From Lytechinus pictus (Eukaryota), in assembly GCF_037042905.1 (NCBI RefSeq), contig NC_087252.1, forward strand, positions 3,908,001 through 3,972,000: a stretch of 64,000 bases of DNA. Direction: 5' to 3'. Shown in pieces: positions 3,326-53,751 of the stretch. Numbering within the stretch: position 1 is the stretch's first letter; the number at the start of each line of letters is the position of its first letter. Below the pieces are notes generated by a model that saw only the letters and a program-made list of their open reading frames with translations, was not told where the DNA came from and did not search any database. Position numbers and translations under genes: made by a program.

Positions 3326-3787
3326 TTCACATCATCATCTCCGTCGTCGTGATCGACGTCTTCATCAATGATATGATGATTATATGATGAAGATGATGAT
3401 GATGATGATCCTCGTCATCGCAGTCATCTACGTCGTCATCATAATCGTCATCATCGTGATCGTCATCACAATAATTAAAATAGATGATCACGATCATTTT
3501 AAAATCATTATCGCCATCGTCGTCATCACCATCTTTATCAACAATCATCATCGTCATCATTTAAGTAGTTGATATGATGATGACCAGCATTATGTAAATA
3601 ATATTGATGAAAATTACGATGACAAAGATTAGTGTATGATGATCACCATCGTCATCATCTTCTTCATCAACATCATCATCAACATCATCATCATCATCAT
3701 CATTATCATCATCATCCTCATCATTATCATCATCATCACCATCATCACATTCTTCATCATCATCATCATCATCACCGTCATCATCAT
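3326..3787. repeat. Degenerate (CAT/GAT)n microsatellite field directly upstream of an exon acceptor
   Basis: Read directly from the sequence. Confidence 0.9.
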
Positions 3788-3819
3788 GAGTGCCATTACC
3801 ATTTATTGTCACCTGTCAG

Positions 3820-3986
3820 GTCGCCCTCCAGCTCCAGTGATACTGGAGGATGAAACACAAGGTCGCTATGGTCGTTTTCACACCTTGGTATGGTCTCCAT
3901 ACTCGGAAACAGAAAGCGATAACTCCCAGCTGACTGATATTCCTATATCACGATACCTCATCCAATATCAACGACAAGATGTAGAG
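3820..3986 (+). CDS. Exon encoding the N-terminal half of a fibronectin type III domain
   Basis: tgtcag| acceptor in phase 1. Reads GRPPAPVIL...TLVWSP...IPISRYLIQYQRQDVE (Fn3 PP..P, W, and PI..Y.I.Y pattern). GAG|gtgaat donor. Confidence 0.85.
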
Positions 3987-14907: not shown

Positions 14908-15910
14908 GTGAGTGTACCAGAATTATTAATTTTCTAGAGATATGAGCTATTGATGTTCAGTTTCTGCCAAAGATTTTGTAGTATTTGCGAAGAGTGTGAG
15001 AGACCGTCTGGAGTGGGTAGATGATGGTTGGTAGAAGATGATGCATAGTGCATGTACCCAAGAATTTCGTCTCGGACCCACCCGTAGAAGAACGAGTTGG
15101 ATGGACGTGGGTCTGGGCGGTGTCACCATCTTGGATATAAATCTTAAGACAATTCAGTTGAGTTGATGTTGATTTTTGTTGATGCCTGATATTGAGCTAA
15201 ATGAATTGAAACTTGAAATCAATAACATTTATAATTTGCAATATGATTTGTTAATTCAATTTTGTAGTTAAAATAATTGGATAGTACAGAACAAGCCGAG
15301 ATGTGAACCATGGAATTGAGATATTTCTACAGTAGATTTGTAGATTTTATTCAATCTGAAATGATAAAACAAAACAGCATATTTTGAGTCATCTCATCCT
15401 GAATTAAAACATGCACTTAAATATGAATATCTTGTGTAACCTGGTCTTGATGCATTTACATTTGTCCATCAAAGTATTACTAAATATTCTGACCAAGATT
15501 GACTTTCATTGTTTATAGTAAAAGCATGGATTAAGACTAATATAAACCAATTGAAAGTCTGAATGTAGCAGACAATATTATTTTCTATCAAAATCACTCC
15601 TTATATAAAAGGCATAAAAAATCAATGCCCAATTTTGGCAGGGCGCCAACAACGCATAGTTGAGTCCAACTATGCCGAAACAAATCCCTAATAGCTTTTA
15701 AAACTGGTTTTCTCTAAATTAAATGCACATGCAATTATTCATGAACCAAAACTAGTTTTGCCAGAAACTTATTTCTACCTCTTCAAAATACACTTCATGA
15801 ATTCACCAAATGTTCATGTATCAGACTCATGAACATGGTTTTGTATCCTTTTGTATAGATCTATATTTATGCACTTTCACCTCACAATGAGCAACTTGTC
15901 TTAAGCATAG

Positions 15911-18900
15911 TGTTGTAAAAATGTGAGTTGTTGATGTGGGTTAGCGATGTGATGGCACGAGATACGATATACGATGGCACGAGTGGTTAAACTTACAAGT
16001 ACAACACTGACAAGGGTTACGACTCACGAAACTCACAAATGGGTTAATTACCGACGGTACAAGACAGTGACAACAACTAATACTTACCTGACTCTTGCAC
16101 TGACGATTCCACACGGTAGATACAGATAACAGGTTTCTTCTAGACTTCTAATTAATACAGGTTGACCATGGCGCCGGGTGGGGATGCAGCTGTGTTGGTG
16201 CGTCCACACTCGTTGGCGTCTCGGGGTCTTCTCTCTCTGGTGTCTAGTCTGGATCTAATCTCTTGCACCAGCTTGTGTACGTGCTGTGCAACGCACGTAC
16301 ACGTAGCATGCGAAGGAGCATATAAAGGCTCCTCCAATCAGGACGCTCCTCGCATGCACACAGCACACACACAGACTTAACATACATGAACATAGGTCAA
16401 TACATAGACTAATACATATACAGGTACATGGCAAATTTACTACATTCCTCCCGGTTCCATCAGATTGCGACATATATTGACAAATCCATGAATTGGCTAT
16501 ATTGTGCAATCTCAATAGATATAAACAGATATGAAGAACTCTGACAGAAGAATGTAATATATGCCTAGGCTATATGATTAAAACTGATTAAATATATGAC
16601 ATCAATAAAATACCTCAAATACACAAAAAGTGTGATCTGAGGATATGAACTATTCTTAACTTGTTCATTAAAAAGATTGCTGGTCCAGCAAAATGAAACA
16701 TCTCATCACTTGAGACCAGCAAATATACACTTGGAGAAACAAGAACAAGTTAATGGTAAGTATTAATCTGGCCAGGCTGGCCCAGTCTTGTCTATGTATT
16801 GATACAAAGGTTATCTTCTCATTTAGTGCAAGTCTGAATGACTGAAAGAAGATATGTTCATCCTTCAAAGTGCACTACTTGACAAAGATTCTTAAAGTTG
16901 ACTCTTGGTCAGTGCTTTATATTAAATTGTATATTGTACTATTAAAATAATGACAATGGAATAAAGCCAATTTGGCTGGAGCTCTATTACCAATTAATAT
17001 AGGCCTGTACAATGTGACCTTTACAAATATGATATATAATTGGTCATATGTTTGAGCTCTTAAAAACATATAAAAATGTAAGGATAATTCAACCAGATCT
17101 GGTGCAAATAGATATAACAGCCTGGACCTGACATACATACATAGTATTTTCTCTTGAGAAAAAACTACTACTATTTCAACATCCTGTATGACAATATTTC
17201 CAAGGTTGTTTATAAAGCCTTTGCAAACAAGGTAAAAGATCTTTGGTTGAAATATCTATATCTTTATGAAATATAAAATATATACAAATATGATAAAAGA
17301 ATTATCTATTGCATAACCAGTGTATGCAACTATTACTTCATATGTCACCTGAAGAGGTAAAAACTATTGAAAAATAAGAAGTGTGCCCTTACCTTCAGTG
17401 ACTATAAAATTAATTATAATGCCTAACAGAAATTTCAATTGCAGGACTTTCAGCAACTGATCAAGGAGATATTACTCCATTCTTGGGGTGGTGGCCAGGG
17501 AGGAAGGAGCCAAGGACAAGATGTAAGAAATGGGTTGTTACCTAAACTACAAACATACCTCTGGTTCCACCACAAGAAAGAACTGAGGAATTCAAGGATA
17601 GAGAACTTAGGAGGGGTAATTCCCAAAAGTAATTGCACAAGATAACTTTGCCCATACTTGGCATCCTCAGTAGAGGCTCGACTGTCCTCTGACACAGTTA
17701 CAAAACTTACATTATCTACATCTAAGGTATTAACTGTAACATCACTTACACATGAAGTATCTACAGTTACATCATCTATACATGTGGTATTTACAGTTAC
17801 AGCATCTACACTAATGACATTATCAGAAACACAAGTATCTACATCTATTGTTAAACGTTCTGGACAGTTCCTCTTGAAGTGTCCAGATTTGTTACATGCA
17901 AAACAAACATCACGACAAGACAACTTGGATTCAGTGTCTTCTGTCGAAGGAGAATCTGTATGCCTATTCAGCTCTGGGACAGCAGTTACCGATCCCTGGA
18001 CTGAGGACTGGAAGGACTTCATCTGTGCCCCTGGAGCAGATTGAATATCAACCTTCTTCTCCAGATTGGGCACTCGGTCCTCCAGACTGTTCTGACCGGA
18101 GGACTGCTGAGCATTAGAGGCATGCCCGGAAACACCCATACGGTTAACTCTGGGATCCTCCTCGACAGTATCGTAAGACCTTTGTCTTGCATACGTTAGC
18201 CGATGCTGAAACCACCGAACTAAGTAAATGGCATCATCGAGATTCCGAGGACGTGATTTGATAGCGTATTTTCCCGCTTCATGGTCTAATAAACCCTGAC
18301 AAAACTTTTGCACTATTTGCCTCTCAAAAATCTCCTCAGGCAATCCGTCAAAGACGCGTGAAGCGTAGGATAGGACACGGTCGGCCCATTCCCCCTTTGT
18401 TTCGGTTGTTGCCTGCTGCGCAAAATCAAATTGCAATTGTGCGACAGGAAATTCTTTGGAAGCAAATCTTTGCTCAAGCTTCTTGATAACATCTGTATAG
18501 GGAATGTTTAGCTTGGAAGAAACAATAATTGATGCAAAATATTTGATTGCGCTTCCCTCAAGACAAAAGCAAAGTTCATTGAGGTGTTGGGCTTGACCCC
18601 AACCTCGATCTTCCGAATAAAGCTGGAAATTACGTATAAAAGTGTGCCAACATCCTCTACCATCGAAGGTCACGTACTTGGGCAACGAGGACACTCGCGG
18701 ACCAGTACACCCACGAGAATAAGATCTCAGGGCATCGCAACCTCGATCTAAGGACGGAAGCCTTGAATCTAGAGTAGATGAATGCCGAGATGATTTCAGT
18801 TCTTCTGACAATGATTTCATTTGAACAGCCATACAGTGCATCATCATTGCTATGTAAGCATCATCTTTGGAATGATCATTAGAAGTATGACAGGAAGATT

Positions 18901-19228
18901 GTGGATAAGAATCATGTTTATTTGTACTCTGAACCCTGCTGTTTGATCTGGGTTCACATTGAGTATAAGATGAATGTAAATGTTTGGAATCCTCACTAGT
19001 ATAGGGAGTACCAGGAGCATATCTAGAGTGATCAGTATATTGTGAATGATATCAGCTTGTGTACGTGCTGTGCAACGCACGTACACGTAGCATGCGAAGG
19101 AGCATATAAAGGCTCCTCCAATCAGGACGCTCCTCGCATGCACACAGCACACACACAGACTTAACATACATGAACATAGGTCAATACATAGACTAATACA
19201 TATACAGGTACATGGCAAATTTACTACA
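15911..19228 (-). mobile_element. Nested non-autonomous gag-only Ty3/Gypsy-type LTR element
   Basis: TGTTGTAAA...TTTACTACA termini, 4-bp TSD ATAG (15907-15910 and 19229-19232), intact 534-bp LTR 15911-16444, PPT-like tract 16445-16452, partial LTR 19053-19228 matching 16269-16444. Confidence 0.92.
17450..18847 (-). CDS. Retrotransposon Gag-like protein (465 aa) with CCHC knuckle and atypical C-terminal extension
   Basis: PKYVTFDG..W..F...F......GW capsid-like pattern, KLEQRF, and CFACNKSGHFKRNC. No protease, RT or integrase motif recognised downstream. Confidence 0.88.
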   Translation of the reverse strand: MMMHCMAVQMKSLSEELKSSRHSSTLDSRLPSLDRGCDALRSYSRGCTGPRVSSLPKYVTFDGRGCWHTFIRNFQLYSEDRGWGQAQHLNELCFCLEGSAIKYFASIIVSSKLNIPYTDVIKKLEQRFASKEFPVAQLQFDFAQQATTETKGEWADRVLSYASRVFDGLPEEIFERQIVQKFCQGLLDHEAGKYAIKSRPRNLDDAIYLVRWFQHRLTYARQRSYDTVEEDPRVNRMGVSGHASNAQQSSGQNSLEDRVPNLEKKVDIQSAPGAQMKSFQSSVQGSVTAVPELNRHTDSPSTEDTESKLSCRDVCFACNKSGHFKRNCPERLTIDVDTCVSDNVISVDAVTVNTTCIDDVTVDTSCVSDVTVNTLDVDNVSFVTVSEDSRASTEDAKYGQSYLVQLLLGITPPKFSILEFLSSFLWWNQRYVCSLGNNPFLTSCPWLLPPWPPPQEWSNISLISC

Positions 19229-20127
19229 ATAGATATGCTTTAAAATACAATATAATCTTTGTAATATGAAAATAACTCAGATATTTTGTCTCTTCATTCT
19301 CACTAAAAAAGAAGTCTTGTATTTTCATGCTTTTGCTTAGATTATGAATCCAAACCGAACTAAACTTCTTGGAAATGTTTATATTCACATTTTCCAACAT
19401 AACCAGTTGCTTCCAAAAAACTAAACAAAGCTTTCAACTGAAGCTTTTCATTAATTAAATATTCATATTTTAGACATCTTGAAACTTTTACTTTATAACA
19501 CAAATTTCAGTCATGTGCATTTCAGAAAATTGTGATCAGATTTCACATGAGCCTTTTGAGCCAAAAACTGTCTTCTAACTTCAACCTCTTTTCACGTGTA
19601 CATTTATAATGAATTTTTACGTCTGTTTTTCGTCAATAACTCTCTTTGACTTTCTTAACATAATTATATAATCAACACATTATCTCCCCTATTATCTGAT
19701 TAATCTACGAAACTTACTTCTATGACGGGACACAAATAAACATTGCTGAAATTTGGACATAAAAGGTGACGAAATGCAGCACCTCCGTAAACTCATGAAC
19801 GTGAAAAATCTGATGCTGAAGATAGCGCACTGCTGTAAATTGACGTGTTGACAAATTTGATATGGTATCTTAGAGATAGATCATTAAAGCAAACGTTATA
19901 ATAATCATATGGCATTTTAATCCAAAATAAATCCATTTTTTCCAAAGTTTAATCTTCTCTTCAAATTTGCCTTTCTGAAAGATTAAATTTTCTCATATAT
20001 TCGGCTTCTTACCAAAACATCCTCCCCACCCAATGAGGGGGTTGTCCTCATTACAAATTGAAACAAAAAAAAAACAGCAAAATTCGCGCTACAGATAAAT
20101 TGTATCAAAACTTACAATCCTTATGTA

Positions 20128-23100
20128 CTAATCTTCGTATCCCTCAACAGGGTAGATTACTGCTAACTTGGTTACTGGACGACGATATTCAGAGTTCATA
20201 GTCTTTACTTTCACATTCCGCACTTTACCGTCGTCACCTGGGTAAACTTCAATCACGCGAGCGATTGTCCACTTGCTGCGTACAGAGTTCATGTCGGCAA
20301 GCATTACTACATCCCCAACGCAGACATTGCGTCGATGAACATTCCACTTCCTTCTTGGAGCTAACAGTGGCAAGACATCCCTTGTCCACCGTTGCCAGAA
20401 AGAATATACAATGCGCTGAACCAGTTCCACTCTGTGTCTTGGATTTCGCGTCTTCAAGAATGGGCCTTGCGCTACGCTCCCCGAAGCTCGTCCTAGAAGC
20501 ATGTCGTTCGGTGAGATATAGCTGCCATCGTCTGGATCAGTTGGAAGTCGGCCGATAGGTCTTTGGTTGACAAGATTCGATACCTCCACTAAGCATGTAT
20601 ACAGTTCAAAAGGCGACAACACTTGATCACCTATCGCCCTTTTCAATGCATGCTTGCAGCTCTTGACCAAAGATTCGGCGCACCCGTTTTGATGTGGTGC
20701 CCCAGGAGTTACAAACTTCCATGTAGTGCCTCTCTCTGCACAAAAGTCCTTCAGCTCGTTGTCAGACATTCCGTCCGTCATCTTCCTTAGTTCTCGTTCT
20801 GCACCTATGAACTGGGTACCATTGTCGCTCATGATCATCGTTGGTTGTCCTCTGATAGAGAAGAAACGTCTTAGCACCTGAATGAATTCCATCGTACTAC
20901 AATCCACTGCCAGTTCCAGATGAACAGCACGTGTGTTCAAGCAGGTGAATATCACCCCATAATATTTTGATGTCTTGTTACGTCCCACTTTCACCGTTAG
21001 CGGCCCGAAATAATCACATGAAGTGAAGTGGAATGGTGGTGTACTTGGGGCCAATCTCTCTTTTGGTAGGTCTGACATCTGTTGGGTCTCTGTCTTGTGC
21101 TGAAACACTCTGCACTTGGTACATCTATACTTAACTGTCTTGGCAAGTTTGTGACCATGAAGAATCCAGTATTTCAGTCTTATCTTTGCCATGGTTGCAG
21201 CTACTCCACTGTGACTCGTCTCATGTACATGACGAGTAATCAGTCTTGAAACATGATGTCCATATGGTAGCAGGGCAGGATGCTTCTGCTCAAATGACGT
21301 AATCGCTTTATCTATCCTGCCTCCAACCCGTATGATACCGTAGTCATCAATGAATGGACTCAAAGACTTCAGCTCTCCTTTCTTGATCCGAGACTCCATG
21401 CCATTTTGTACATCTCTGATGATGTACTTTTCTCCGTCATCTAGTTCTGTGGGCGTAATCTCTATACTGGTCTCTTTTTCCTGATTCTGCCGTCTGGCCT
21501 TGAGTTTCTTTACAAACTTTATCACCAATGCTGCTACTCTGACCAGTTTCCTCCAGTTAGAGAACCTCTCGTAATCAATCAGATGATGACTCTGAGACAC
21601 ATTTAGAACTGTCTTCTCGTTACGCCTCTCCTTCTCAACATCAGGAAGGTCCTCACGAACCTTGACTTCGTCGGGCCAATCAGATGCTGACTTTTGAAGA
21701 AAGTCTGGACCCCGTTGCCATGACCCCACCAGCTCACTTGCCTTCAGTCCTCTTGATAACACATCTGCTATGTTGCTTTCTCCAGAGATGTGTCTCCATT
21801 TGCTGGGGTCTGTACTGGTCTGGATTTCTCCCACTCTTGTTGCAACAAACGTCTTGAAGGTTTTTGCCCTACCTCTAATCCACGAGAGGGCGATCGTACT
21901 GTCTGTCATTAAAATGACATCCTCAATTTCAATCCTCAGCTCCTCCAATATCGTCTTATATAACCTACTCGCAAGAACTGCAGCCTGAAGCTCAAGGCGT
22001 GGAACTGTTAGTGGCTTGAGTGGTGCCACTCGTGATTTTGCTGCCACAAATCTAGTCATGTAGCCTCCACCATCCATTTCCCACCTCAGGTATGCACACG
22101 CTCCAAAGGCATGCATCGAAGCATCACTGAAGATACAGAGCAGCGGCTTACCCACTGCCTCTTTCGGAGTCAGACATCTTTCAAATGTTACCTCCTTGAG
22201 CTCTTCCATTTCTTGAAAGAATCTTTTCCATTCCATTTGACATTCATCTGGAAGAACTGCATCCCAGTCATAGCCATTTTCCCATAGTTGCTGTAGTCCA
22301 ATTTTTGCCCGGATGACAAACGGTGCTGTATAGCCAATCGGATCGAAGATTCGGGCAACCTGACTGAGGATGATTCTCTTGGTTAGTCTCTTATCTATGA
22401 ACTTGTCAACTTTAACTCTGTAAGAGAACTCATCCTTCTCTCTATCCCAGAAGACTCCTAGCACCTTCTCCTCTGCTAGACTTTCCATCATAGTTTTCTC
22501 CATTTCGTTTGCCTCTGGACCTTTTAGCTGTATGTTGGAAGTCCAGCCTTTCACCTTAAACCCACCATCAGCAAGAATCATGTCAATGTCCTTGGTTAAG
22601 GTTTTAGCTTGCTCTATCGAATCTGTAGATGTGCAGATGTCATCCATGTATGTATCTCTTTTCAATACATCTGCAGCCTCTGGAGACTGAGCACGGCCTT
22701 CTTCTGCAGTGAGTCTCAGTGCTGTCTGCGCCATTGCTGGAGCCGGCTTATCTCCAAACGTCACGACTTGCATCACATACGTATCAGGCTTTCTGTTCAC
22801 TTGCAAATCTCTCCACAAAAACCTGTGTACGTGCTGATCAGACTCGGGTATCAGCACCCTGTGGTACATTTTTGAGATATCTGCACAAACTGCTACTGAC
22901 CTCTCCCGGAAACGTAGGATGACTCCAAACAAGTTATTTAAGAGGTCAGGGCCTTTCATCCAGAAGTCGTTGAGACACTTGCCAGCATACACTGAAGAGG
23001 AATTGAAGACAATTCTTATCGGTGTGCTCTTCTTTTCCGGTCGCAACACTGCATGATGAGGAATATAATGCACAGGGCCTTCATACGACTCCATTTCCTC

Positions 23101-24798
23101 AATTGTCATTTTCCTTGCGAAACCCATCTGTACCATTTCCTTAATTTGATTATCATAGGCTTTGGCATGCTCGGCATCCTTCAGCAACCTTTTCTCTGTA
23201 GCACAGAGCATTTTTTCCACCAGTACCTTGTTGTCTGGCAGTTCCTTTGGGTTTCTCTGCCATGGATATGGAACCAGCCACTGTCGTCCTTTCTTCTGAC
23301 AAGCCTTGATGATAAACTTCTGTTCATCTACCTCTTTATCTGGACAGGCCACTCCCATAGATTCTGTCGTCCAAAAATCCTGCAGATCAATGGGATTCCT
23401 GATTACTTGTACATTGAGTACGTTTCCACCCTTCTGACCTGGTTTACCACCAAACACCACCCAGCCTAGTGGCGTTCGCTTAGCAACTAGATGTCCTCTC
23501 TCTCTTGGCTTTCCATTCCCAAGATGAAGTTTTGCATAGTCGGCACCGATGAGTAGATCAATTGGTCCAGAACCTCTGTAGAGTTTGTCAAGATGGAAAA
23601 TCCTTGCTAACTCTCTAACATTAACACCTGTGATGTTATCGTTGATGACATCTAGTCCGATAGCTTGTACCACAATGACTTTATGGGTATCCAAAGACTC
23701 AAGCTTAACCCGATATAACTTGGAATCAGCAGTCTCTCTATCTCCGCCAACTTTTGTGATCACGACTTGGATTGGATCACCCTCGAGATTAAGCGTCTTT
23801 GCAATCTCCGTCCTGATGAGTGTCACTTGAGACCCAGAGTCCAACAAACAGTTACCAATGACCGCTCCCTTCGTACCTCGAACCTTGACTGACAGTATTG
23901 GTAACAGAGTCTCACTTGATCCGATACTTGCCACGTCCACTGTAGACTCCCTTTTTTCGATTGTTGAATGCAGCAAAGGATGATGATATGAGGGGCATTG
24001 GTCGCACTTCCTTCTTCGTCTACATGTGGTCATGCGGTGTTCCTTGCTGGCCCGCTTCAGACAGCTAAAGCACGCTCTGTTCGCCTTCATCAAGTCGTAC
24101 CTTTCTGGTTGGCTCATTCTGATAATCATTTGACACTTATCAATCCAGTGATCATTGGATTTACAGTGCCAACACTTAAAGTCCTGCTTACGAACCACAT
24201 CATTGCCTTTGTCTTGGTTCATAACTTGGTGTATGGATGCACCTTGCTTGGTCCTGTTATCTGACCTTCCTTCTCGAATGGATGCAGTCGCCCGAATGCG
24301 AGTCTGTAGTTCCTCGCTCATCCAGTCCATCAAGCCCTTTAAAGTGGGTGACCTCTGTAGACGTAACCAAATCTTACGATCTTCATTTGTAAGCTTCCGT
24401 TCTATCAACGCCAACATATGAGAATTGTTCATATCCTCTTCCTTATTTATCTGTTTCAGAGTGTTGTAACTCCTCCTAACTAATCCGGCAAACTCGATGA
24501 ACCTTGCATCCTCACCGTCCTTCAAGTTCTTGAACTTTGTGATGTCAGATATGATAGCATCGGCTAGATTCCTCGGATCACCGTACATGATATCAAGTTG
24601 CTCCCACGCTGCTTGATAGTCGGTTCCTATCCCTTGAATTATTTCCAGTGGTTTCCCTTGCAGGCTAGTACGCATAATTGTTATGCAATCCCTTTCGGCA
24701 TATCTGGTTTCGATGAGATGCTTGAAGTCGGACTTAAAAGTCTGATATTCTCTAATATCTCCTGAAAACCTGGGTAACTTAGGTTTTTCAACCTGCAC
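20128..24798 (-). CDS. BEL/Pao gag-pol polyprotein, main ORF (1556 aa)
   Basis: KLPRFSGD gag; CWHC..H....C, CFSC and CDQC..HHPLLH knuckles; LLDSGS protease; ADISKMY and YMDD reverse transcriptase; FSDAS RNase H; H..H..CTKC and CDYFGP / SDNGTQF / AES integrase. Confidence 0.96.
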   Translation of the reverse strand: MQVEKPKLPRFSGDIREYQTFKSDFKHLIETRYAERDCITIMRTSLQGKPLEIIQGIGTDYQAAWEQLDIMYGDPRNLADAIISDITKFKNLKDGEDARFIEFAGLVRRSYNTLKQINKEEDMNNSHMLALIERKLTNEDRKIWLRLQRSPTLKGLMDWMSEELQTRIRATASIREGRSDNRTKQGASIHQVMNQDKGNDVVRKQDFKCWHCKSNDHWIDKCQMIIRMSQPERYDLMKANRACFSCLKRASKEHRMTTCRRRRKCDQCPSYHHPLLHSTIEKRESTVDVASIGSSETLLPILSVKVRGTKGAVIGNCLLDSGSQVTLIRTEIAKTLNLEGDPIQVVITKVGGDRETADSKLYRVKLESLDTHKVIVVQAIGLDVINDNITGVNVRELARIFHLDKLYRGSGPIDLLIGADYAKLHLGNGKPRERGHLVAKRTPLGWVVFGGKPGQKGGNVLNVQVIRNPIDLQDFWTTESMGVACPDKEVDEQKFIIKACQKKGRQWLVPYPWQRNPKELPDNKVLVEKMLCATEKRLLKDAEHAKAYDNQIKEMVQMGFARKMTIEEMESYEGPVHYIPHHAVLRPEKKSTPIRIVFNSSSVYAGKCLNDFWMKGPDLLNNLFGVILRFRERSVAVCADISKMYHRVLIPESDQHVHRFLWRDLQVNRKPDTYVMQVVTFGDKPAPAMAQTALRLTAEEGRAQSPEAADVLKRDTYMDDICTSTDSIEQAKTLTKDIDMILADGGFKVKGWTSNIQLKGPEANEMEKTMMESLAEEKVLGVFWDREKDEFSYRVKVDKFIDKRLTKRIILSQVARIFDPIGYTAPFVIRAKIGLQQLWENGYDWDAVLPDECQMEWKRFFQEMEELKEVTFERCLTPKEAVGKPLLCIFSDASMHAFGACAYLRWEMDGGGYMTRFVAAKSRVAPLKPLTVPRLELQAAVLASRLYKTILEELRIEIEDVILMTDSTIALSWIRGRAKTFKTFVATRVGEIQTSTDPSKWRHISGESNIADVLSRGLKASELVGSWQRGPDFLQKSASDWPDEVKVREDLPDVEKERRNEKTVLNVSQSHHLIDYERFSNWRKLVRVAALVIKFVKKLKARRQNQEKETSIEITPTELDDGEKYIIRDVQNGMESRIKKGELKSLSPFIDDYGIIRVGGRIDKAITSFEQKHPALLPYGHHVSRLITRHVHETSHSGVAATMAKIRLKYWILHGHKLAKTVKYRCTKCRVFQHKTETQQMSDLPKERLAPSTPPFHFTSCDYFGPLTVKVGRNKTSKYYGVIFTCLNTRAVHLELAVDCSTMEFIQVLRRFFSIRGQPTMIMSDNGTQFIGAERELRKMTDGMSDNELKDFCAERGTTWKFVTPGAPHQNGCAESLVKSCKHALKRAIGDQVLSPFELYTCLVEVSNLVNQRPIGRLPTDPDDGSYISPNDMLLGRASGSVAQGPFLKTRNPRHRVELVQRIVYSFWQRWTRDVLPLLAPRRKWNVHRRNVCVGDVVMLADMNSVRSKWTIARVIEVYPGDDGKVRNVKVKTMNSEYRRPVTKLAVIYPVEGYED

Positions 24799-25118
24799 CT
24801 TCCTCCAGAGCTGATATTTCCAATGCTATTGTTTTCGAGGTAGTCACAAACCTTCGCTTTCACTTGCATGAAGTTATTCATGCAATCTTCTATCCATGCC
24901 TGCTCTGATTCATATGCCGAATCATCAAGAAGCTCACAGTATACGTCATGCTTCTCTTCCAGATCCTTGTAGCATTTCTGACATTCCTGAAAGCCCTCAT
25001 CAACCTCTATGCTGGATCTTTCACTGTCCATCAGGGCCGTAACTTGATTCAAAGTCCTTGTGAACTTCCCCTTTGCCGACCTCCGCTTCACCTTCAGTTC
25101 GCCTGCTCTTTCAGCCAT
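24799..25118 (-). CDS. N-terminal gag segment (MAERAGELKVKRRSAKGKFTR...) separated from the main ORF by a 1-nt frame break
   Basis: ATG lies 48 bp after the 5' LTR and gives a helical BEL-gag-like N-terminus. One extra base at ...GGA GGA A|GG TGC joins it to KVQVEKPKLP. Confidence 0.8.
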
Positions 25119-25166
25119 CTTGTCCTTCTTGTACTATTCCCGGAGTATGCGGAGAAATTGAATTTA

Positions 25167-26586
25167 TGGATAGTACAGAACAAGCCGAGATGTGAACCAT
25201 GGAATTGAGATATTTCTACAGTAGATTTGTAGATTTTATTCAATCTGAAATGATAAAACAAAACAGCATATTTTGAGTCATCTCATCCTGAATTAAAACA
25301 TGCACTTAAATATGAATATCTTGTGTAACCTGGTCTTGATGCATTTACATTTGTCCATCAAAGTATTACTAAATATTCTGACCAAGATTGACTTTCATTG
25401 TTTATAGTAAAAGCATGGATTAAGACTAATATAAACCAATTGAAAGTCTGAATGTAGCAGACAATATTATTTTCTATCAAAATCACTCCTTATATAAAAG
25501 GCATAAAAAATCAATGCCCAATTTTGGCAGGGCGCCAACAACGCATAGTTGAGTCCAACTATGCCGAAACAAATCCCTAATAGCTTTTAAAACTGGTTTT
25601 CTCTAAATTAAATGCACATGCAATTATTCATGAACCAAAACTAGTTTTGCCAGAAACTTATTTCTACCTCTTCAAAATACACTTCATGAATTCACCAAAT
25701 GTTCATGTATCAGACTCATGAACATGGTTTTGTATCCTTTTGTATAGATCTATATTTATGCACTTTCACCTCACAATGAGCAACTTGTCTTAAGCATAGA
25801 TATGCTTTAAAATACAATATAATCTTTGTAATATGAAAATAACTCAGATATTTTGTCTCTTCATTCTCACTAAAAAAGAAGTCTTGTATTTTCATGCTTT
25901 TGCTTAGATTATGAATCCAAACCGAACTAAACTTCTTGGAAATGTTTATATTCACATTTTCCAACATAACCAGTTGCTTCCAAAAAACTAAACAAAGCTT
26001 TCAACTGAAGCTTTTCATTAATTAAATATTCATATTTTAGACATCTTGAAACTTTTACTTTATAACACAAATTTCAGTCATGTGCATTTCAGAAAATTGT
26101 GATCAGATTTCACATGAGCCTTTTGAGCCAAAAACTGTCTTCTAACTTCAACCTCTTTTCACGTGTACATTTATAATGAATTTTTACGTCTGTTTTTCGT
26201 CAATAACTCTCTTTGACTTTCTTAACATAATTATATAATCAACACATTATCTCCCCTATTATCTGATTAATCTACGAAACTTACTTCTATGACGGGACAC
26301 AAATAAACATTGCTGAAATTTGGACATAAAAGGTGACGAAATGCAGCACCTCCGTAAACTCATGAACGTGAAAAATCTGATGCTGAAGATAGCGCACTGC
26401 TGTAAATTGACGTGTTGACAAATTTGATATGGTATCTTAGAGATAGATCATTAAAGCAAACGTTATAATAATCATATGGCATTTTAATCCAAAATAAATC
26501 CATTTTTTCCAAAGTTTAATCTTCTCTTCAAATTTGCCTTTCTGAAAGATTAAATTTTCTCATATATTCGGCTTCTTACCAAAACA
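25167..26586 (-). repeat. BEL 5' LTR (1420 bp)
   Basis: Matches 15278-15910 plus 19233-20019 with no mismatch found by eye. Minus-strand TATATAA at 25490-25496 and AATAAA about 70 bp from the LTR end. Confidence 0.95.
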
Positions 26587-27224
26587 ATAATAACAGCAGG
26601 ACTGGTAATAATACGGGTATAGTTACATGTATTTTACAAAATACCGCCAATGCATGCATGATGACATAAATGTAGACATAGCCATTGATAGGCTAGGCCT
26701 ATATGCCTTGAATTATTTGTGATGAAAATAGGGATTGGTTTTCCTACATGTATTTGACATGGGTAATTGTCATTTTACTAGTTATTTTAAGTTTAACATT
26801 CATATTTTTATTTATTTGGTCACAACAAGTGCATAACTAAATATTCTATGTACATGTAGATTTGATTCTAAAAGCAATACTGTAGATTCTACTAGTCATT
26901 GGTAGGCCTACTCATGAGAGTCATGAAGACGATTGGCTTTGATAACCATTTATATTTGGCCTAACTTGATGTGATAGATGAATGGATACTCATTCGCTTG
27001 TAATGTACAATTAGTGAATATAGTTCCCTTTTTTCCCTCTCTAGAAATAATTTTGGATATTGAGCACCATTGATGATGGCCACTGACCCACTGCATTATT
27101 GCACTTGTCTTTGTGTTTTTGGATTAACACCCCCCCCCCCACTTTCAGCACCACAACCCTCACAATCTCCTCTTTGATTAAACTAATTACCACCATCAGC
27201 ATTACTTTACTACAAACTTCACCA

Positions 27225-30457: not shown

Positions 30458-31041
30458 TAGCCTCTTGTCGAGGCCCTGTCGGCTGCTTTCCGAGCGAACA
30501 TGGCAAAGCAAGGGAGAGAGCGAAGCAGAGCGCCGCGAGACAGGGCCTCTTGACATCTGACCCGAATTTCACCGACTTTCTTTTGTTTTTTATTGTTTTT
30601 ACCAATTCACCGACCAAAAACTGGTCGGTGAAAATCATCCAATGAGAGCGTGAGCTGCTATGACGTCATATTAAATATTCATGAGCTCATCTTGAATGGC
30701 GACCCTTGGATTCTTGACGAAGAGTGACGACGAAATATCAAAGAGCGCTGAATATGACTCTAAAATGCTGAATATTGACCAATTTAAGGATTTGCAAGTC
30801 GATGAAATTAACTCTGCACTGAAAGGACGAGATGTCTTTGTAAATCTACCCACAGGATATGGAAAAAATGTAATATTTCATGCGATTCCACCGGTCGAAC
30901 CGGGGCGTCGATTATCGATCTCCGCTGTGCAGTGCAGTGAGGGAAGCTGGGGTGGAGTTGCTGGGAGTTGACTCGAGTCTGACCAGCGGCTGAGCAGTAT
31001 CTCCCGGGAAGTTTTGGGGCGGTGATGGGTCTGTTACGGCC

Positions 31042-31072
<31 letters not shown>

Positions 31073-31389
31073 CCACTACTTGTAGCATTTTGCTGGTTAT
31101 ATCCCCTTTAGTGCCCCGCAATTAAATGAATCCCCTGCAGAATAATGTACTACTATACTATATAGTATTCTGAACCCAAAACGAAACAGCTCTGACATTT
31201 CATTGGTTTACTCGGTGACCGGTAATATCATGACTCATGTATATTCATTAGGAAGACGTTGCTCATGAATATATAATTCAGTTCAGATGTCAAGAAGCCC
31301 TGGCTCGCGCCAGGCCTAATTCGCTTTGCGAATTAGGGAATCCCTCGCTTCGCTCGGGAAGCAGCCGCCAGGGCCTCGACAAGGGGCTA
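30458..31389 (+). mobile_element. Non-autonomous AcademH-like DNA transposon, copy 1 (932 bp)
   Basis: TGGTGGTCA|tagcctcttgtcgaggccctg ... cagggcctcgacaaggggcta|TGGTGGTCA, with an internal RecQ-helicase fragment. Confidence 0.88.
30696..30971 (+). pseudogene. Truncated RecQ-like superfamily-2 helicase N-terminus carried by the transposon
   Basis: FKDLQVDEINSALKGRDVFVNLPTGYGKNVIF matches RecQ motif 0 plus Walker A. Similarity ends after about 65 aa. Confidence 0.85.
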
Positions 31390-46861: not shown

Positions 46862-49698
46862 AGGACAAGTCCACCCCAACAAAAAGTTGATTTGAATAAA
46901 AATAGAAAAATCAAACAAGCATAACACTGAAAATTTCATCAAAATTGGATGTAAAATAAGAAAGTTATGACATTTTAAAGTTTCGCTTAATTGCACAAAA
47001 CAGTTATAATATATGCACATCCTGGTCGGTATGCAAATGAGGAGACTGATGACATCACCCACTCACACTTTCTTTTGTATTTTATTGTATGAAATATGAA
47101 ATATTTCAATTTTCTCCTTATTGTCATGAGAAACAAGGTTTCATTTCTCCATGAACATGTGGAATTACTATTGTTTGAACATATTGTGGTCAGGCGCGTA
47201 GCCAGGGGGGGGCGGTGGGGGCGGTCGCCCCCCCAAAAACGTCCCCAAAAAGAAAAAAAAAGAAGGGAAAAAAGAGAGGAAAAAAGGAAAAGGGAAGGGA
47301 GGAAAGGGAAGAAAGGTAGCTTTGTCGGTTTTTTTTTTCTTTTTATTCTTTATTCTTTTCTCAAAAGAGAAACTCCTTCACTCTTGCTTTAAATTTATAT
47401 ATGAATTTTGCTTCCGCGCTGCGCGCGGCTAAATGACAATATTGAAGTTCTCCATTGTTTCCCCACCCTTTCTCTAACTCTGCTTTTCCACCTCAGCTAT
47501 ATGTGTTTCTTGCCAGTTAAAGTTCAAATGTATAGATTAGGGCATGGAATTAGAGTAAGGTTAGGCCGAAGTATATGAAGTTATCTTTTTTTTTATTGAT
47601 TGCGCAACTTCTGGTCGGGTCGGCTCCGGGCGGGTAAAATCTTTATATCAATTTCTGCCGTCACCTCCATAAAGTCAACTTCTCCCGCTTTTCAGGTCAT
47701 TACTAAACAACCATAATTTGGGGCAAACAGGTTCCTAATTTAAAAAGAGGAATGTATAAAATTCGTGTCGTACTAAATAAAAAAGTACAATATTTTTTTC
47801 AAATTCTATTAATCTTCATGTTATTTCCCTGCACATTCATCTCCTGTCCTGTTTTGCGCCCTCAGTTTGAAATTTTGAATGACACTTAGGTTTCTTTATA
47901 ATTCAAAATGAAGCGCTTCAGGATAAGTCAAAGAAATTAGGCATCCTTTTTTATAATATTTTAATAAATCACAGAAGTTTCAACTTTTTGCGCACTATTT
48001 TCCTTGTAATGAAGTTCAATAATCTTAGGAAATCAATTGAATTAGAGCCGATGGGGTATTAGATATATCTGCATTTGATGAAACGTCCGCCCTTTGAAAT
48101 TTCAGAGTTTTATTGTTCTGCGCGGGGAGGAATATCTTCCTCCCGGCATATACACTTCTTCTCCTCTGTTTTGCGAGTTAAAGATATGCACTGTCGCTAA
48201 ATTGTTTGTAATCAAATCTGATATTTCCAAGGGAAGTATTCAATATATCTTTGAGAATACCCTTTTCTCGGGACCCTTTTCATGGCAAAAAAAATTGATA
48301 AAACGCTTTAGCTTCCGCGCTTCGCGCGGGGTTATAATGATTTTAATTTCCTCCATTGTATTCCTTTTTGTATATGAAGTTATCTTTTTTTTTATTGATC
48401 GCGCAACTTCTGGTCGGGTCGGCTCCGGGCGGGTAAAATCTTTATATCAATTTCTGCCGTCACCTCCATAAAGTCAACTTCTCCCGCTTTTCAGGTCATT
48501 ACTAAACAACCATAATTTGGGGCAAACAGGTTCCTAATTTAAAAAGAGGAATGTATAAAATTTGTGTCGTATTAAATAAAAAAGTACAATATTTTTTTCA
48601 AATTCTATTAATCTTCATGTTATTTCCCTGCACATTCATCTCCTGTCCTGTTTTGCGCCCTCAGTTTGAAATTTTGAATGACACTTAGGTTTCTTTATAA
48701 TTCAAAATGAAGCGCTTCAGGATAAGTCAAAGAAATTAGGCATCCTTTTTTATATTATTTTAATAAATCACAGAAGTTTCAACTTTTTGCGCACTATTTT
48801 CCTTGTAATGAAGTTCAATAATCTTAGGAAATCAATTGAATTAGAGCCGATGGGGTATTAGATATATCTGCATTTGATGAAACGTCCGCCCTTTGAAATT
48901 TCAGAGTTTTATTGTTCTGCGCGGGGAGGAATATCTTCCTCCCGGCATATACACTTCTTCTCCTCTGTTTTGCGAGTTAAAGATATGCACTGTCGCTAAA
49001 TTGTTTGTAATCAAATCTGATATTTCCAAGGGAAGTATTCAATATATCTTTGAGAATACCCTTTTCTCGGGACCCTTTTCATGGCAAAAAAATTGATAAA
49101 ACGCATTAGCTTCCGCGCTTCGCGCGGGGTTATAATGATTTTAATTTCCTCCATTGTATTCCTTTTTGTGCGTTCACAATCACTTTTGAAAACAAGGTTT
49201 AAAATCACAATAAAGTCAACTGAATTGGAGCTGATATAGGTCTAGAGACAAGAGAGACGGCTCCTTTTCATTTTAATTTATGAAACACCAAAAGCTTCGC
49301 GCTTCGCAAAGGGAGGGGGAAACTCCCCCTCCCTGCACCCACCCCCTAGGGAGCGCGCTTCGCGCGCTCTGTAAGTGTTGGCACGCTTTACCGCCCCCTC
49401 CAAAATGAAATCCTGGCTACGCGGTTGATTGTGGTCCAACAAAGAGGGACCTTATTGTCAAATCTGTGAAAATTGAAATATTGTATAATTCAAACAATAA
49501 AAAACAAAAGAAATAGTGAGTGAGTGACATCATCAACTCTCTCATTTGCATATCACTGTTTGGTGAAAAATAAGCGAAACTTTAAAATGTCATAACTTTC
49601 TTATTTTACATCCAATTTTGATGAAATTTTCACTGTTATGCTTGTTTGATTTATCTCTATTGATTCAAATCAACATTTTTCTGGGCTGGACTTGCCCT
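46862..49698. mobile_element. Family-A TTAA MITE split by a hAT-like insertion
   Basis: 46862-47190 and 49428-49698 rejoin to the 2434-3025 family sequence. Confidence 0.8.
47191..49427. mobile_element. hAT-like non-autonomous element with 8-bp TSD ATTGTGGT and an internal 799-bp tandem duplication
   Basis: attgtggt|caggcgcgtagccagg ... cctggctacgcggttg|attgtggt. Units start at 47571 and 48370. Confidence 0.88.
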
Positions 49699-52817: not shown

Positions 52818-53751
52818 TAGCCTCTTGTCGAGGCCCTGGCGGCTGCTTCCCAAGCGAAGCGAGGGATTCCCTAATTCGCGAAGCGAATTAGGCCTGGCGT
52901 GAGCCAGGGCCTCTTGACATCTGAACTGAATTATATATTCATGAGGAACGTCTTCCTAATGAATATACATGAGTCATGATATTACTGGTCACCGAGTAAA
53001 CCAATGAAATGTCAGAGCTGTTTCGTTTTGGGTTCGGAATACTATATAGTATAGTAGTCCATTATTCTGCAGGGGATTCATTTAATTGCGGGACACTAAA
53101 CTAAGGGGATATAACCTGCAAAATGCTATACAAGTAGTGGTACTACTACTACTACTGGCCGTAACAGACCCATCACCGCCCCGAAACTTCCCGGGAGATA
53201 CCCCGGGAGATACTGCTCAGCCGCTGGTCAGACTCGAGTCAACTCCCAGCAACTCCACCCCAGCTTCCCTCACTGCACTGCACAGCGGAGATCGATAATC
53301 GACGCCCCGGTTCGACCGGTGGAATCGCATGAAAGATAACATTTTTTCCATATCCTGTGGGTAGATTTACAAAATCATCTCGTCCTTTCAGTGCAGAGTT
53401 AATTTTATCGACTTGCAAATCCTTAAATCGGTCAATATTCAGCATTTTAGAGGCATATTCAATGCTCTTTGATATTTCGTCGTCATTCTTCGCCAAGAAT
53501 CCACGGGTCGCCATTCAAGATGAGCTCATGAATATTCAATATGACGTCATAGCAGCCCGCGCTCTCATTGGATGATTTTCACCGACCAGTTTTTGGTCGG
53601 TGAATTGGTAAAAAAAAAAAAAAAAAAAAGAAAGTCGGTGAAATTCGGGTCAGATGTCCAGAGGCCCTGTCTCGCGGCGCTCTGCTTCGCTCTCTCCTTG
53701 CTTTGCCATGTTCGCTCGGAAAGCAGCCGACAGGGCCTCGACAAGAGGCTA
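52818..53751 (-). mobile_element. Non-autonomous AcademH-like DNA transposon, copy 2 (934 bp, inverted relative to copy 1)
   Basis: ACTATGAAC|tagcctcttgtcgaggccctg ... cagggcctcgacaagaggcta|ACTATGAAC. Confidence 0.88.
53239..53514 (-). pseudogene. Truncated RecQ-like helicase N-terminus, copy 2
   Basis: FKDLQVDKINSALKGRDDFVNLPTGYGKNVIF, same 91-aa length as copy 1. Confidence 0.85.

What the first reader, a model, noticed from the sequence alone, without database searches (positions are those of the whole stretch)
15911..19228. Gag-only LTR element: recently mobile but with no pol
Seen: clean TG..CA ends, 4-bp TSD, PPT-like tract, an open 465-aa Gag with CCHC knuckle, then about 1 kb of AT-rich sequence with no recognisable protease, RT or integrase before the 3' LTR. 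It inserted into an LTR still apparently identical to its partner, so it moved very recently. Known: gag-only non-autonomous LTR elements (TR-GAG type) are described mainly in plants. Inference: an active animal family that supplies its own capsid and borrows Pol in trans.
Basis: partly seen in the sequence, partly recalled or inferred. Interest (0 to 1): 0.75.

Follow-up and report, generated by a model that had tools for sequence, protein, structure and literature searches.

The report
Truncated copy of gag-only retrotransposon
This is a very recent but damaged copy of a jumping gene in a sea-urchin-like genome whose family keeps only its shell-protein gene and so must borrow copying enzymes from a relative, a lifestyle already known in plants and fish.

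Summary
The insertion is real (TG..CA outer ends, 4-bp TSD, PPT, inside a BEL/Pao LTR with 0 mismatches in 1420 nt), and 16445-17449 holds no pol remnant. The 5' LTR stops after 176 nt and runs straight into the gag frame, with no PBS. Contigs of two other runs leave the window at that base and continue 409 and 466 nt, so the '465-aa Gag' is a 5'-cut gene. Premature plus-strand transfer during copying is the likeliest cause. The missing pol looks like a family trait: diverged sister contigs carry the gag end and the AT-rich spacer, two Lytechinus pictus copies share the unusual gag tail, and a complete gag-only LTR element of the same Ty3/Gypsy gag group occurs in another animal's record. No genome was held, so copy number, helper and dN/dS are open. 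Active gag-only LTR families are described in zebrafish (PMC12067270), and this scan noted such elements on other animal DNA. Verdict: new member of a known kind.

The parts
15907..15910 (.). target-site duplication, left copy (4 bp)
   Evidence: same 4 letters at 19229-19232; single copy in the partner host LTR at 25796-25799
15911..16444 (-). complete 3' LTR, 534 nt, TG..CA, ends form an imperfect 9-nt inverted repeat
   Evidence: sequence; sister contigs and RNA reads cover most of it with differences
16445..16458 (-). polypurine tract
   Evidence: purine-rich 14-mer abutting the 3' LTR
16459..17449 (-). AT-rich non-coding spacer (31% GC) where pol would be; no pol remnant; shared with sister copies
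   Evidence: diverged sister contigs X5 records 11, 12, 13, X9 records 18, 21
17450..19051 (-). 5'-truncated Ty3/Gypsy-type gag frame, 533 codons: capsid about residues 120-290, CCHC 382-398, then a 137-residue tail ending in a W-x-x-P-P-W-P-P-P motif
   Evidence: model pLDDT about 80-97 over residues 121-290; best Foldseek matches dArc1 and PNMA2 capsids, E 3e-4 to 8e-4
19052..19053 (-). deletion junction: LTR position 176 joined to the inside of gag; removes 358 nt of LTR, the PBS, leader and gag start
   Evidence: repeat ends at 19053; X5 record 16 and X9 record 24 leave the window at 19053 with the same loose letters and run on 466 and 409 nt; X1 record 8 ends at 19053
19053..19228 (-). 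truncated 5' LTR, 176 nt, identical to 16269-16444
19229..19232 (.). target-site duplication, right copy
15278..20019 (-). 3' LTR of the host BEL/Pao element (1420 nt), split by the insertion at its position 788
   Evidence: 0 mismatches to 25167-26586; TG..CA; 5-bp TSD at 15273-15277 and 26587-26591
20128..25133 (-). gag-pol of the host BEL/Pao element, in two frames (24681-25133 and 20128-24825)
   Evidence: Pfam DUF1759, protease, RVT_1, Peptidase_A17, rve, DUF5641
25167..26586 (-). 5' LTR of the host BEL/Pao element; shows the empty target site

Best explanation
A dead-on-arrival copy of a non-autonomous, gag-only LTR retrotransposon family derived from a Ty3/Gypsy lineage, in a sea urchin (probably Lytechinus or a close relative; inferred from the named hits). 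Intact members would read LTR - PBS - gag - AT-rich spacer - PPT - LTR (at least about 4.1 kb, inferred). Their RNA is packaged and copied with protease, RT and integrase of an autonomous Gypsy relative, and may add its own Gag to the particle. This copy was most likely damaged while being copied: the plus strand started at the PPT, stopped after 176 nt of LTR and jumped onto the minus strand inside gag instead of at the PBS. That leaves both outer ends intact, so integrase still inserted it with a 4-bp TSD, into the 3' LTR of a young BEL/Pao element. Shown: ends, TSD, PPT, truncation, longer 5' region in sisters, no pol, capsid fold. Inferred: full layout of sisters, trans-mobilisation, the strand-transfer error, any use of the family's Gag.
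For: Anatomy and junction. Sisters continue past the junction in 2 of 4 runs laid, from different studies, with the same loose letters; read by eye the 30 letters shown have no stop in the gag frame. In 29 relatives with an N-terminal helix-hairpin-helix motif the capsid starts at residue 151-725 (median 263), here at 124. Sister contigs with differences lie on the spacer (X5 record 11: 15 differences and 8 gaps in 203 nt; record 12: 9 and 5 in 151 nt), and X5 record 13 and X9 record 21 bridge the gag stop into the spacer. P0001, a second L. pictus copy, is about 55% identical in the capsid yet 83/83 identical over the last residues up to the end; P0002 carries the same tail. 115 of 120 knuckle-bearing relatives end within 70 residues of the knuckle and 97 of 114 have an N-x-x-G/R motif there; this gag has a 137-residue tail and lacks the motif. 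L007 shows the autonomous layout, gag then pol in another frame. L004 is a complete gag-only LTR element of this gag group, and L003 and L005 share its gag and spacer at 77-82%. Premature second-strand transfer gives proviruses with incomplete 5' LTRs in HIV-1 (PMC12657518 passages). Host LTR divergence is under 0.21% (95% bound), leaving little time for a later deletion.
Against: No genome was held: no sister was seen from LTR to LTR, no PBS was recovered, no helper was found. Contigs are short pieces (no listed piece spans the element) and 34 loose ends, 108 substitutions and 185 pieces were not shown, so a pol-bearing branch could be hidden. What lies downstream of P0001 and P0002 is unknown. 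Selection rests on 13 listed substitutions only. RNA support is thin: 68 reads among 8.7 million records, 11 of them 99% alike. The junction has one shared base, which does not tell a strand-transfer error from a later deletion. L003-L005 are a distant family (28-30% protein identity, no DNA match) and say nothing direct about this one.
Confidence: 0.65

Rival explanations
1. Pol-less family, but its gag is a passenger: the RNA is carried wholly by the helper's Gag and Pol, and the gag frame is open only because the family is young or holds packaging signals.
For: 5 distant relatives with the same tail motif have lost the knuckle; the gag of L004 and L005 is broken; 7 of 8 listed changes in the tail alter the protein; RNA is scarce.
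Against: 4 of 5 listed changes in residues 66-392 are silent (Fisher p 0.03 against the tail, on 13 rows picked by the tool); P0001 keeps an open capsid and knuckle at about 55% capsid identity; the model shows both capsid lobes well folded.
Confidence: 0.15
2. One-off wreck of an autonomous Gypsy element that lost pol and its 5' end after insertion; sisters carry pol.
For: The copy has at least one large deletion; the gag group is normally followed by pol (L007, P0124, P0086).
Against: No pol remnant; spacer and gag stop shared with diverged sisters in 3 contig runs; same gag end in P0001; two large deletions within the age of a 0/1420 host LTR pair is unlikely.
Confidence: 0.1
3. The family reading is right, but the 5' loss is a later DNA deletion or an assembly error, not a copying error.
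For: One shared base at the junction; no listed contig spans it.
Against: X1 record 8 ends exactly at 19053, as a branch would, and X1 has depth beyond it (last bin 35.2 against 17.4 expected from record 8 alone; X5 and X9 have none), though two X1 contigs fit two places and X1 may be the window's own source. Very young host.
Confidence: 0.07
4. The surrounding BEL/Pao element is the helper, and the nesting reflects that partnership.
For: It is young, adjacent and has an open pol frame; both purine tracts end in a similar run.
Against: TSD 5 bp against 4 bp and different LTR ends; no DNA match between the elements; the gag is Gypsy-type. TSD length follows the integrase (established knowledge).
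Confidence: 0.03

Closest known systems
TR-GAG elements of plants (Chaparro et al. 2015, PMC4350172; passages seen)
   Same: LTR element with PPT and one gag ORF with a knuckle, no protease, RT, RNase H or integrase; mobilisation in trans assumed, helper not found
   Different: Animal host; 4-bp not 5-bp TSD; this copy lacks the PBS and a full 5' LTR; intact form probably just over 4 kb; gag has a long tail
Zebrafish BHIKHARI Bik-1 and Bik-2 (PMC12067270; passages seen)
   Same: Animal, recently active, gag without pol, needs a partner; those copies are polymorphic between strains
   Different: Classed there as endogenous retroviruses, with shown protein function in development; here a Ty3/Gypsy-type gag in an echinoderm, with no function or polymorphism shown
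Ty3/Gypsy elements of marine invertebrates with a separate gag ORF (L007, P0124 of Mercenaria, P0086)
   Same: Same gag group: capsid, coiled stretch, CCHC; capsid fold like dArc, PNMA2 and Ty3
   Different: They end gag about 30 residues after the knuckle and go on to pol; here that end is replaced by a 137-residue tail and a non-coding spacer
Defective HIV-1 proviruses from premature second-strand transfer (PMC12657518; passages seen)
   Same: Incomplete 5' LTR joined to internal sequence, deletion starting upstream of the PBS
   Different: A retrovirus; here the mechanism is inferred from one junction
Mammalian MaLR elements (non-autonomous status: PMC5538554 passages; their single gag-like ORF is recalled, not seen in a call)
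   Same: Long-lived non-autonomous LTR family in animals
   Different: ERVL-derived, mammalian, mostly old

Membership tests
TR-GAG (PMC4350172) | Two LTRs | tested here: not met
   5' LTR only 176 of 534 nt; intact sisters not seen whole
TR-GAG (PMC4350172) | PBS after the 5' LTR | tested here: not met
   LTR piece runs into gag; sisters' PBS not recovered
TR-GAG (PMC4350172) | PPT before the 3' LTR | tested here: met
   16445-16458
TR-GAG (PMC4350172) | Gag similarity and no protease, RT, RNase H, integrase | tested here: met
TR-GAG (PMC4350172) | At least two copies | tested here: met
   P0001, P0002 and divergent variants within single runs; full layout of those copies not seen
TR-GAG (PMC4350172) | Under 4 kb | tested here: inconclusive
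   3318 nt here; at least about 4.1 kb if the lost 358 + 466 nt are added
TR-GAG (PMC4350172) | 5-bp TSD, plant host | tested here: not met
   4-bp TSD; closest named hits are sea urchin
Ty3/Gypsy | RT phylogeny and pol order PR-RT-RH-IN | not testable with these tools
   element has no pol; a relative, L007 (19% identity), has that order
Ty3/Gypsy | Ty3/Arc-type two-lobed capsid and CCHC knuckle | tested here: met
Active non-autonomous LTR family | Very recent insertion with TSD | tested here: met
   host LTR 0/1420
Active non-autonomous LTR family | Several full-length copies at different sites with the same pol-less layout | tested here: inconclusive
   only short contigs and two proteins; no genome
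Active non-autonomous LTR family | Autonomous partner sharing LTR ends, PBS, PPT | not testable with these tools
   no genome; the host BEL does not fit
Active non-autonomous LTR family | Purifying selection on gag | tested here: inconclusive
   4 silent of 5 in the core, 1 silent of 8 in the tail, from 13 listed changes

The most novel reading that the evidence does not exclude
Gag-only derivatives of one marine-invertebrate Ty3/Gypsy lineage are a recurring class, and some of them swap the normal gag end for a tail ending in a conserved W-x-x-P-P-W-P-P-P motif (window, P0001, P0003-P0005, P0056, P0032: 6 of 155 relatives, at least three lineages at about 30% identity). The motif would be a dedicated device, for example to bind the helper's particle or a host trafficking protein, making these elements capsid-donating parasites or partners of autonomous Gypsy elements. 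The DNA behind P0003-P0005, P0032 and P0056 was not seen, so that they are pol-less is untested.
Probability: 0.2. Interest if true: 0.6.

Novelty: new member of a known kind. Interest (0 to 1): 0.32.

Why it matters
Modestly. It adds an echinoderm, Ty3/Gypsy-derived case to gag-only LTR elements known from plants and zebrafish, in a genus used for developmental work, where copy number, polymorphism and Gag expression could be tested directly. The copy is also a clean natural example of a truncated 5' LTR with intact ends and TSD, a structure that LTR-pair annotation can misread as intact. The shared tail motif is the one lead that could make it more than a catalogue entry.

Tried and rejected
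Other copies in the window: none by blastn or tblastn. Fused gag-pol relatives of 934-2665 aa: none among 3787 candidates, weak evidence. Tail as a pol C-terminal remnant: no long protein shared words with residues 478-533, no Atlas hit for residues 400-533, only two hits at E 0.03-0.04 in the low-complexity part among 206 queries besides P0001 and P0002; not excluded, because no integrase C-terminus of this lineage was in hand (L007 ends early). Viral contigs: 0 of 37 candidates confirmed. Rfam: 0 matches in 15200-20100; no tRNA in the window. No holder on record as RNA was listed. Earlier scan notes by sequence and by relatives: nothing. Rejected: a 176-nt LTR with extra 3' sequence (the TSD and terminal repeat sit at 15911); a spliced-RNA origin of the junction (an RNA without PBS could not prime; inference); the host BEL as helper; a membrane segment in the tail (best 19-residue hydropathy 1.47, and not in the tail). 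Literature: no listing or 64 described a gag-only LTR family in an echinoderm, judged from titles and abstract starts only; 0 papers held PWPPP with retrotransposon. The library lacks most subscription papers and Repbase reports, and no supplements were read, so absence from print is not shown.

Full report
Observation. The element lies on the minus strand. Its outer ends are TG at 15911 and CA at 19228, flanked by the same four letters, which occur once at the matching place of the partner LTR (25796-25799), so the 4-bp TSD is real. A purine tract abuts the 3' LTR. The frame 19051..17450 is open for 533 codons, 465 from the first Met, with a CCHC knuckle at residues 382-398. The 1005 nt between gag and the 3' LTR are 31% GC. 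None of 34 stop-to-stop frames there hit a pol family in Pfam, and none of 206 proteins, among them the protease-RT-RNase H-partial integrase of relative L007 and the host's pol, matched it at E<0.05. The host is a BEL/Pao element with 1420-nt LTRs at 15278-20019 and 25167-26586, 0 mismatches and a 5-bp TSD, which bounds their divergence under 0.21% at 95%. The nested insertion is younger still, barring gene conversion or assembly smoothing.

The two LTRs share only 176 nt (16269-16444 and 19053-19228). The 5' LTR lacks its last 358 nt, no PBS or leader follows, and the gag frame is open up to the junction. I laid 4 of the 24 listed runs on 15700-19110. Contigs of X5 (968 nt) and X9 (1355 nt), from different studies, match gag up to 19053 and run on for 466 and 409 nt with the same loose letters; the 30 letters shown have no stop in the gag frame, read by eye. 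The 1397-nt X1 contig, identical to the window, ends at 19053. In 29 relatives with an N-terminal helix-hairpin-helix motif the capsid begins at residue 151-725, median 263; here at 124. So the window holds a 5'-deleted copy that cannot prime reverse transcription, and the 465-aa ORF is a cut gene.

How the copy arose. A plus strand that starts at the PPT, stops after 176 nt and lands inside gag gives exactly this shape: short 5' LTR, no PBS, whole 3' LTR, intact tips, normal TSD. Premature second-strand transfer is reported to give HIV-1 proviruses with incomplete 5' LTRs (PMC12657518, passages). This is inference. The junction has one shared base, and a later deletion would look the same, but the host's youth leaves little time for one. 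An assembly error is made less likely by X1, whose last depth bin is 35.2 against 17.4 from the gag contig alone, while X5 and X9 have nothing beyond 19053; two X1 contigs fit two places and X1 may be the window's source, so this is not proof.

Is the missing pol a family trait? Probably. Contigs with differences lie on the spacer (X5 record 11, 15 differences and 8 gaps in 203 nt; record 12, 9 and 5 in 151 nt; X9 record 18, 6 and 5 in 128 nt), and X5 record 13 and X9 record 21 bridge the gag stop into it. No listed loose end leaves the gag end or spacer for other sequence longer than 16 letters, but 34 loose ends and 185 pieces were not shown and no piece spans the element. The two best protein hits are Lytechinus pictus gene models. 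P0001 is about 55% identical over the capsid but 83 of 83 identical at the end, which suggests recombination between sister lineages sharing one 3' module; P0002 is a third copy joined in its model to GPATCH4. In relatives, 115 of 120 with a knuckle end within 70 residues of it and 97 of 114 have an N-x-x-G/R motif there; L007 shows pol starting in another frame at that point. That this motif marks a frameshift site is recalled, not tested. The window's gag lacks it and has a 137-residue tail. Of 9 metagenome loci, L004 is a complete pol-less element of this gag group: LTR 3424-3869, PBS at 3870, gag with one stop, about 850 nt of spacer, PPT, LTR from 6357 (98% alike over the 107 nt held). 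L003 and L005 share gag and spacer at 77-82% with no pol match; L003 also reaches a purine tract and LTR-like sequence. They are distant from the window's family and show that the layout recurs, not that it holds here.

The Gag. The model has two well-predicted helical lobes over residues about 121-290, and its best solved matches are the dArc1 and PNMA2 capsids (E 3e-4 to 8e-4), with Ty3 lower; Atlas neighbours of P0001 are PNMA/Retrotrans_gag/Ty3_capsid clusters. Of 13 substitutions listed inside gag, 4 of 5 in residues 66-392 are silent and 1 of 8 in the tail (p 0.03). These are rows the tool picked (108 not shown), so this is a hint only. In the one raw RNA run, 68 of 8.7 million records were laid, 11 at 99% or more; over 17524-17751 depth was 6-7 on one strand and 0 on the other, which in usual stranded libraries means gag sense. 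Low family transcription, mostly from diverged sisters. The tail ends in W-x-x-P-P-W-P-P-P, found in 6 of 155 relatives; five of those lack the knuckle. I found no long protein or Atlas cluster for the tail and no paper with the motif; its origin is unexplained.

Helper. Not found. The host BEL differs in TSD length and LTR ends and shares no DNA with the element. An autonomous Gypsy with the same ends is the expected partner.

Comparison. It works like TR-GAG (PMC4350172, passages) but this copy fails the PBS, paired-LTR and 5-bp TSD criteria, so I do not file it there. Active gag-only LTR families in animals are described: zebrafish Bik-1 and Bik-2 encode gag without pol and are polymorphic between strains (PMC12067270, passages). 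A mosquito element with only gag, CM-gag, appears as a title in a reference list (PMC3286476; paper not seen). Listings showed no echinoderm case, from titles and abstract starts only. Earlier notes of this scan report gag-only Gypsy elements in other animal genomes; I did not test them.

Verdict. A real, very young, 5'-truncated copy of a probably pol-less Gypsy-derived family (0.65). New member of a known kind, interest 0.32. The shared tail motif is the open lead.

Noticed in passing
window 15278-26586, - strand: Host BEL/Pao element with unusually long AT-rich LTRs (1420 nt, identical), gag split by a frame change near 24790-24825, an open pol frame, a leader of only about 50 nt and no TGG-type PBS after its 5' LTR.
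   Followed up: partly
window 15700-15927: Only run X1 covers this part of the host LTR; X5, X9 and X23 have no depth there although they hold the gag-only family. Contigs do not show absence, but the BEL family may be rare or polymorphic.
   Followed up: no
L004:3424-6463, L003, L005: A second, unrelated-at-DNA-level gag-only LTR family of the same gag group in another animal's metagenome record, with PBS and PPT.
   Followed up: partly
L002:1-1881: A TatD-like nuclease frame (Pfam PF01026, E 6e-33) lies just upstream of a helix-hairpin-helix gag of this group; whether it belongs to the element is unknown.
   Followed up: no
P0002 (matches window 17520-18140): RefSeq model joins another copy of this gag to GPATCH4 exons; the window has a GT donor-like site at the matching place. 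Could be a model artefact or exonisation.
   Followed up: no
P0008, P0009, P0124 and others: Many full-length gags of this group begin with a helix-hairpin-helix domain (Pfam HHH_3), an unusual gag N-terminus; the window copy has lost that end.
   Followed up: partly
window 30513-31389 and 52818-53697: Two inverted copies of an about 880-nt repeat at 96% identity.
   Followed up: no
window 47571-48669: Direct repeat of at least 300 nt at 99% with 799-nt spacing.
   Followed up: no
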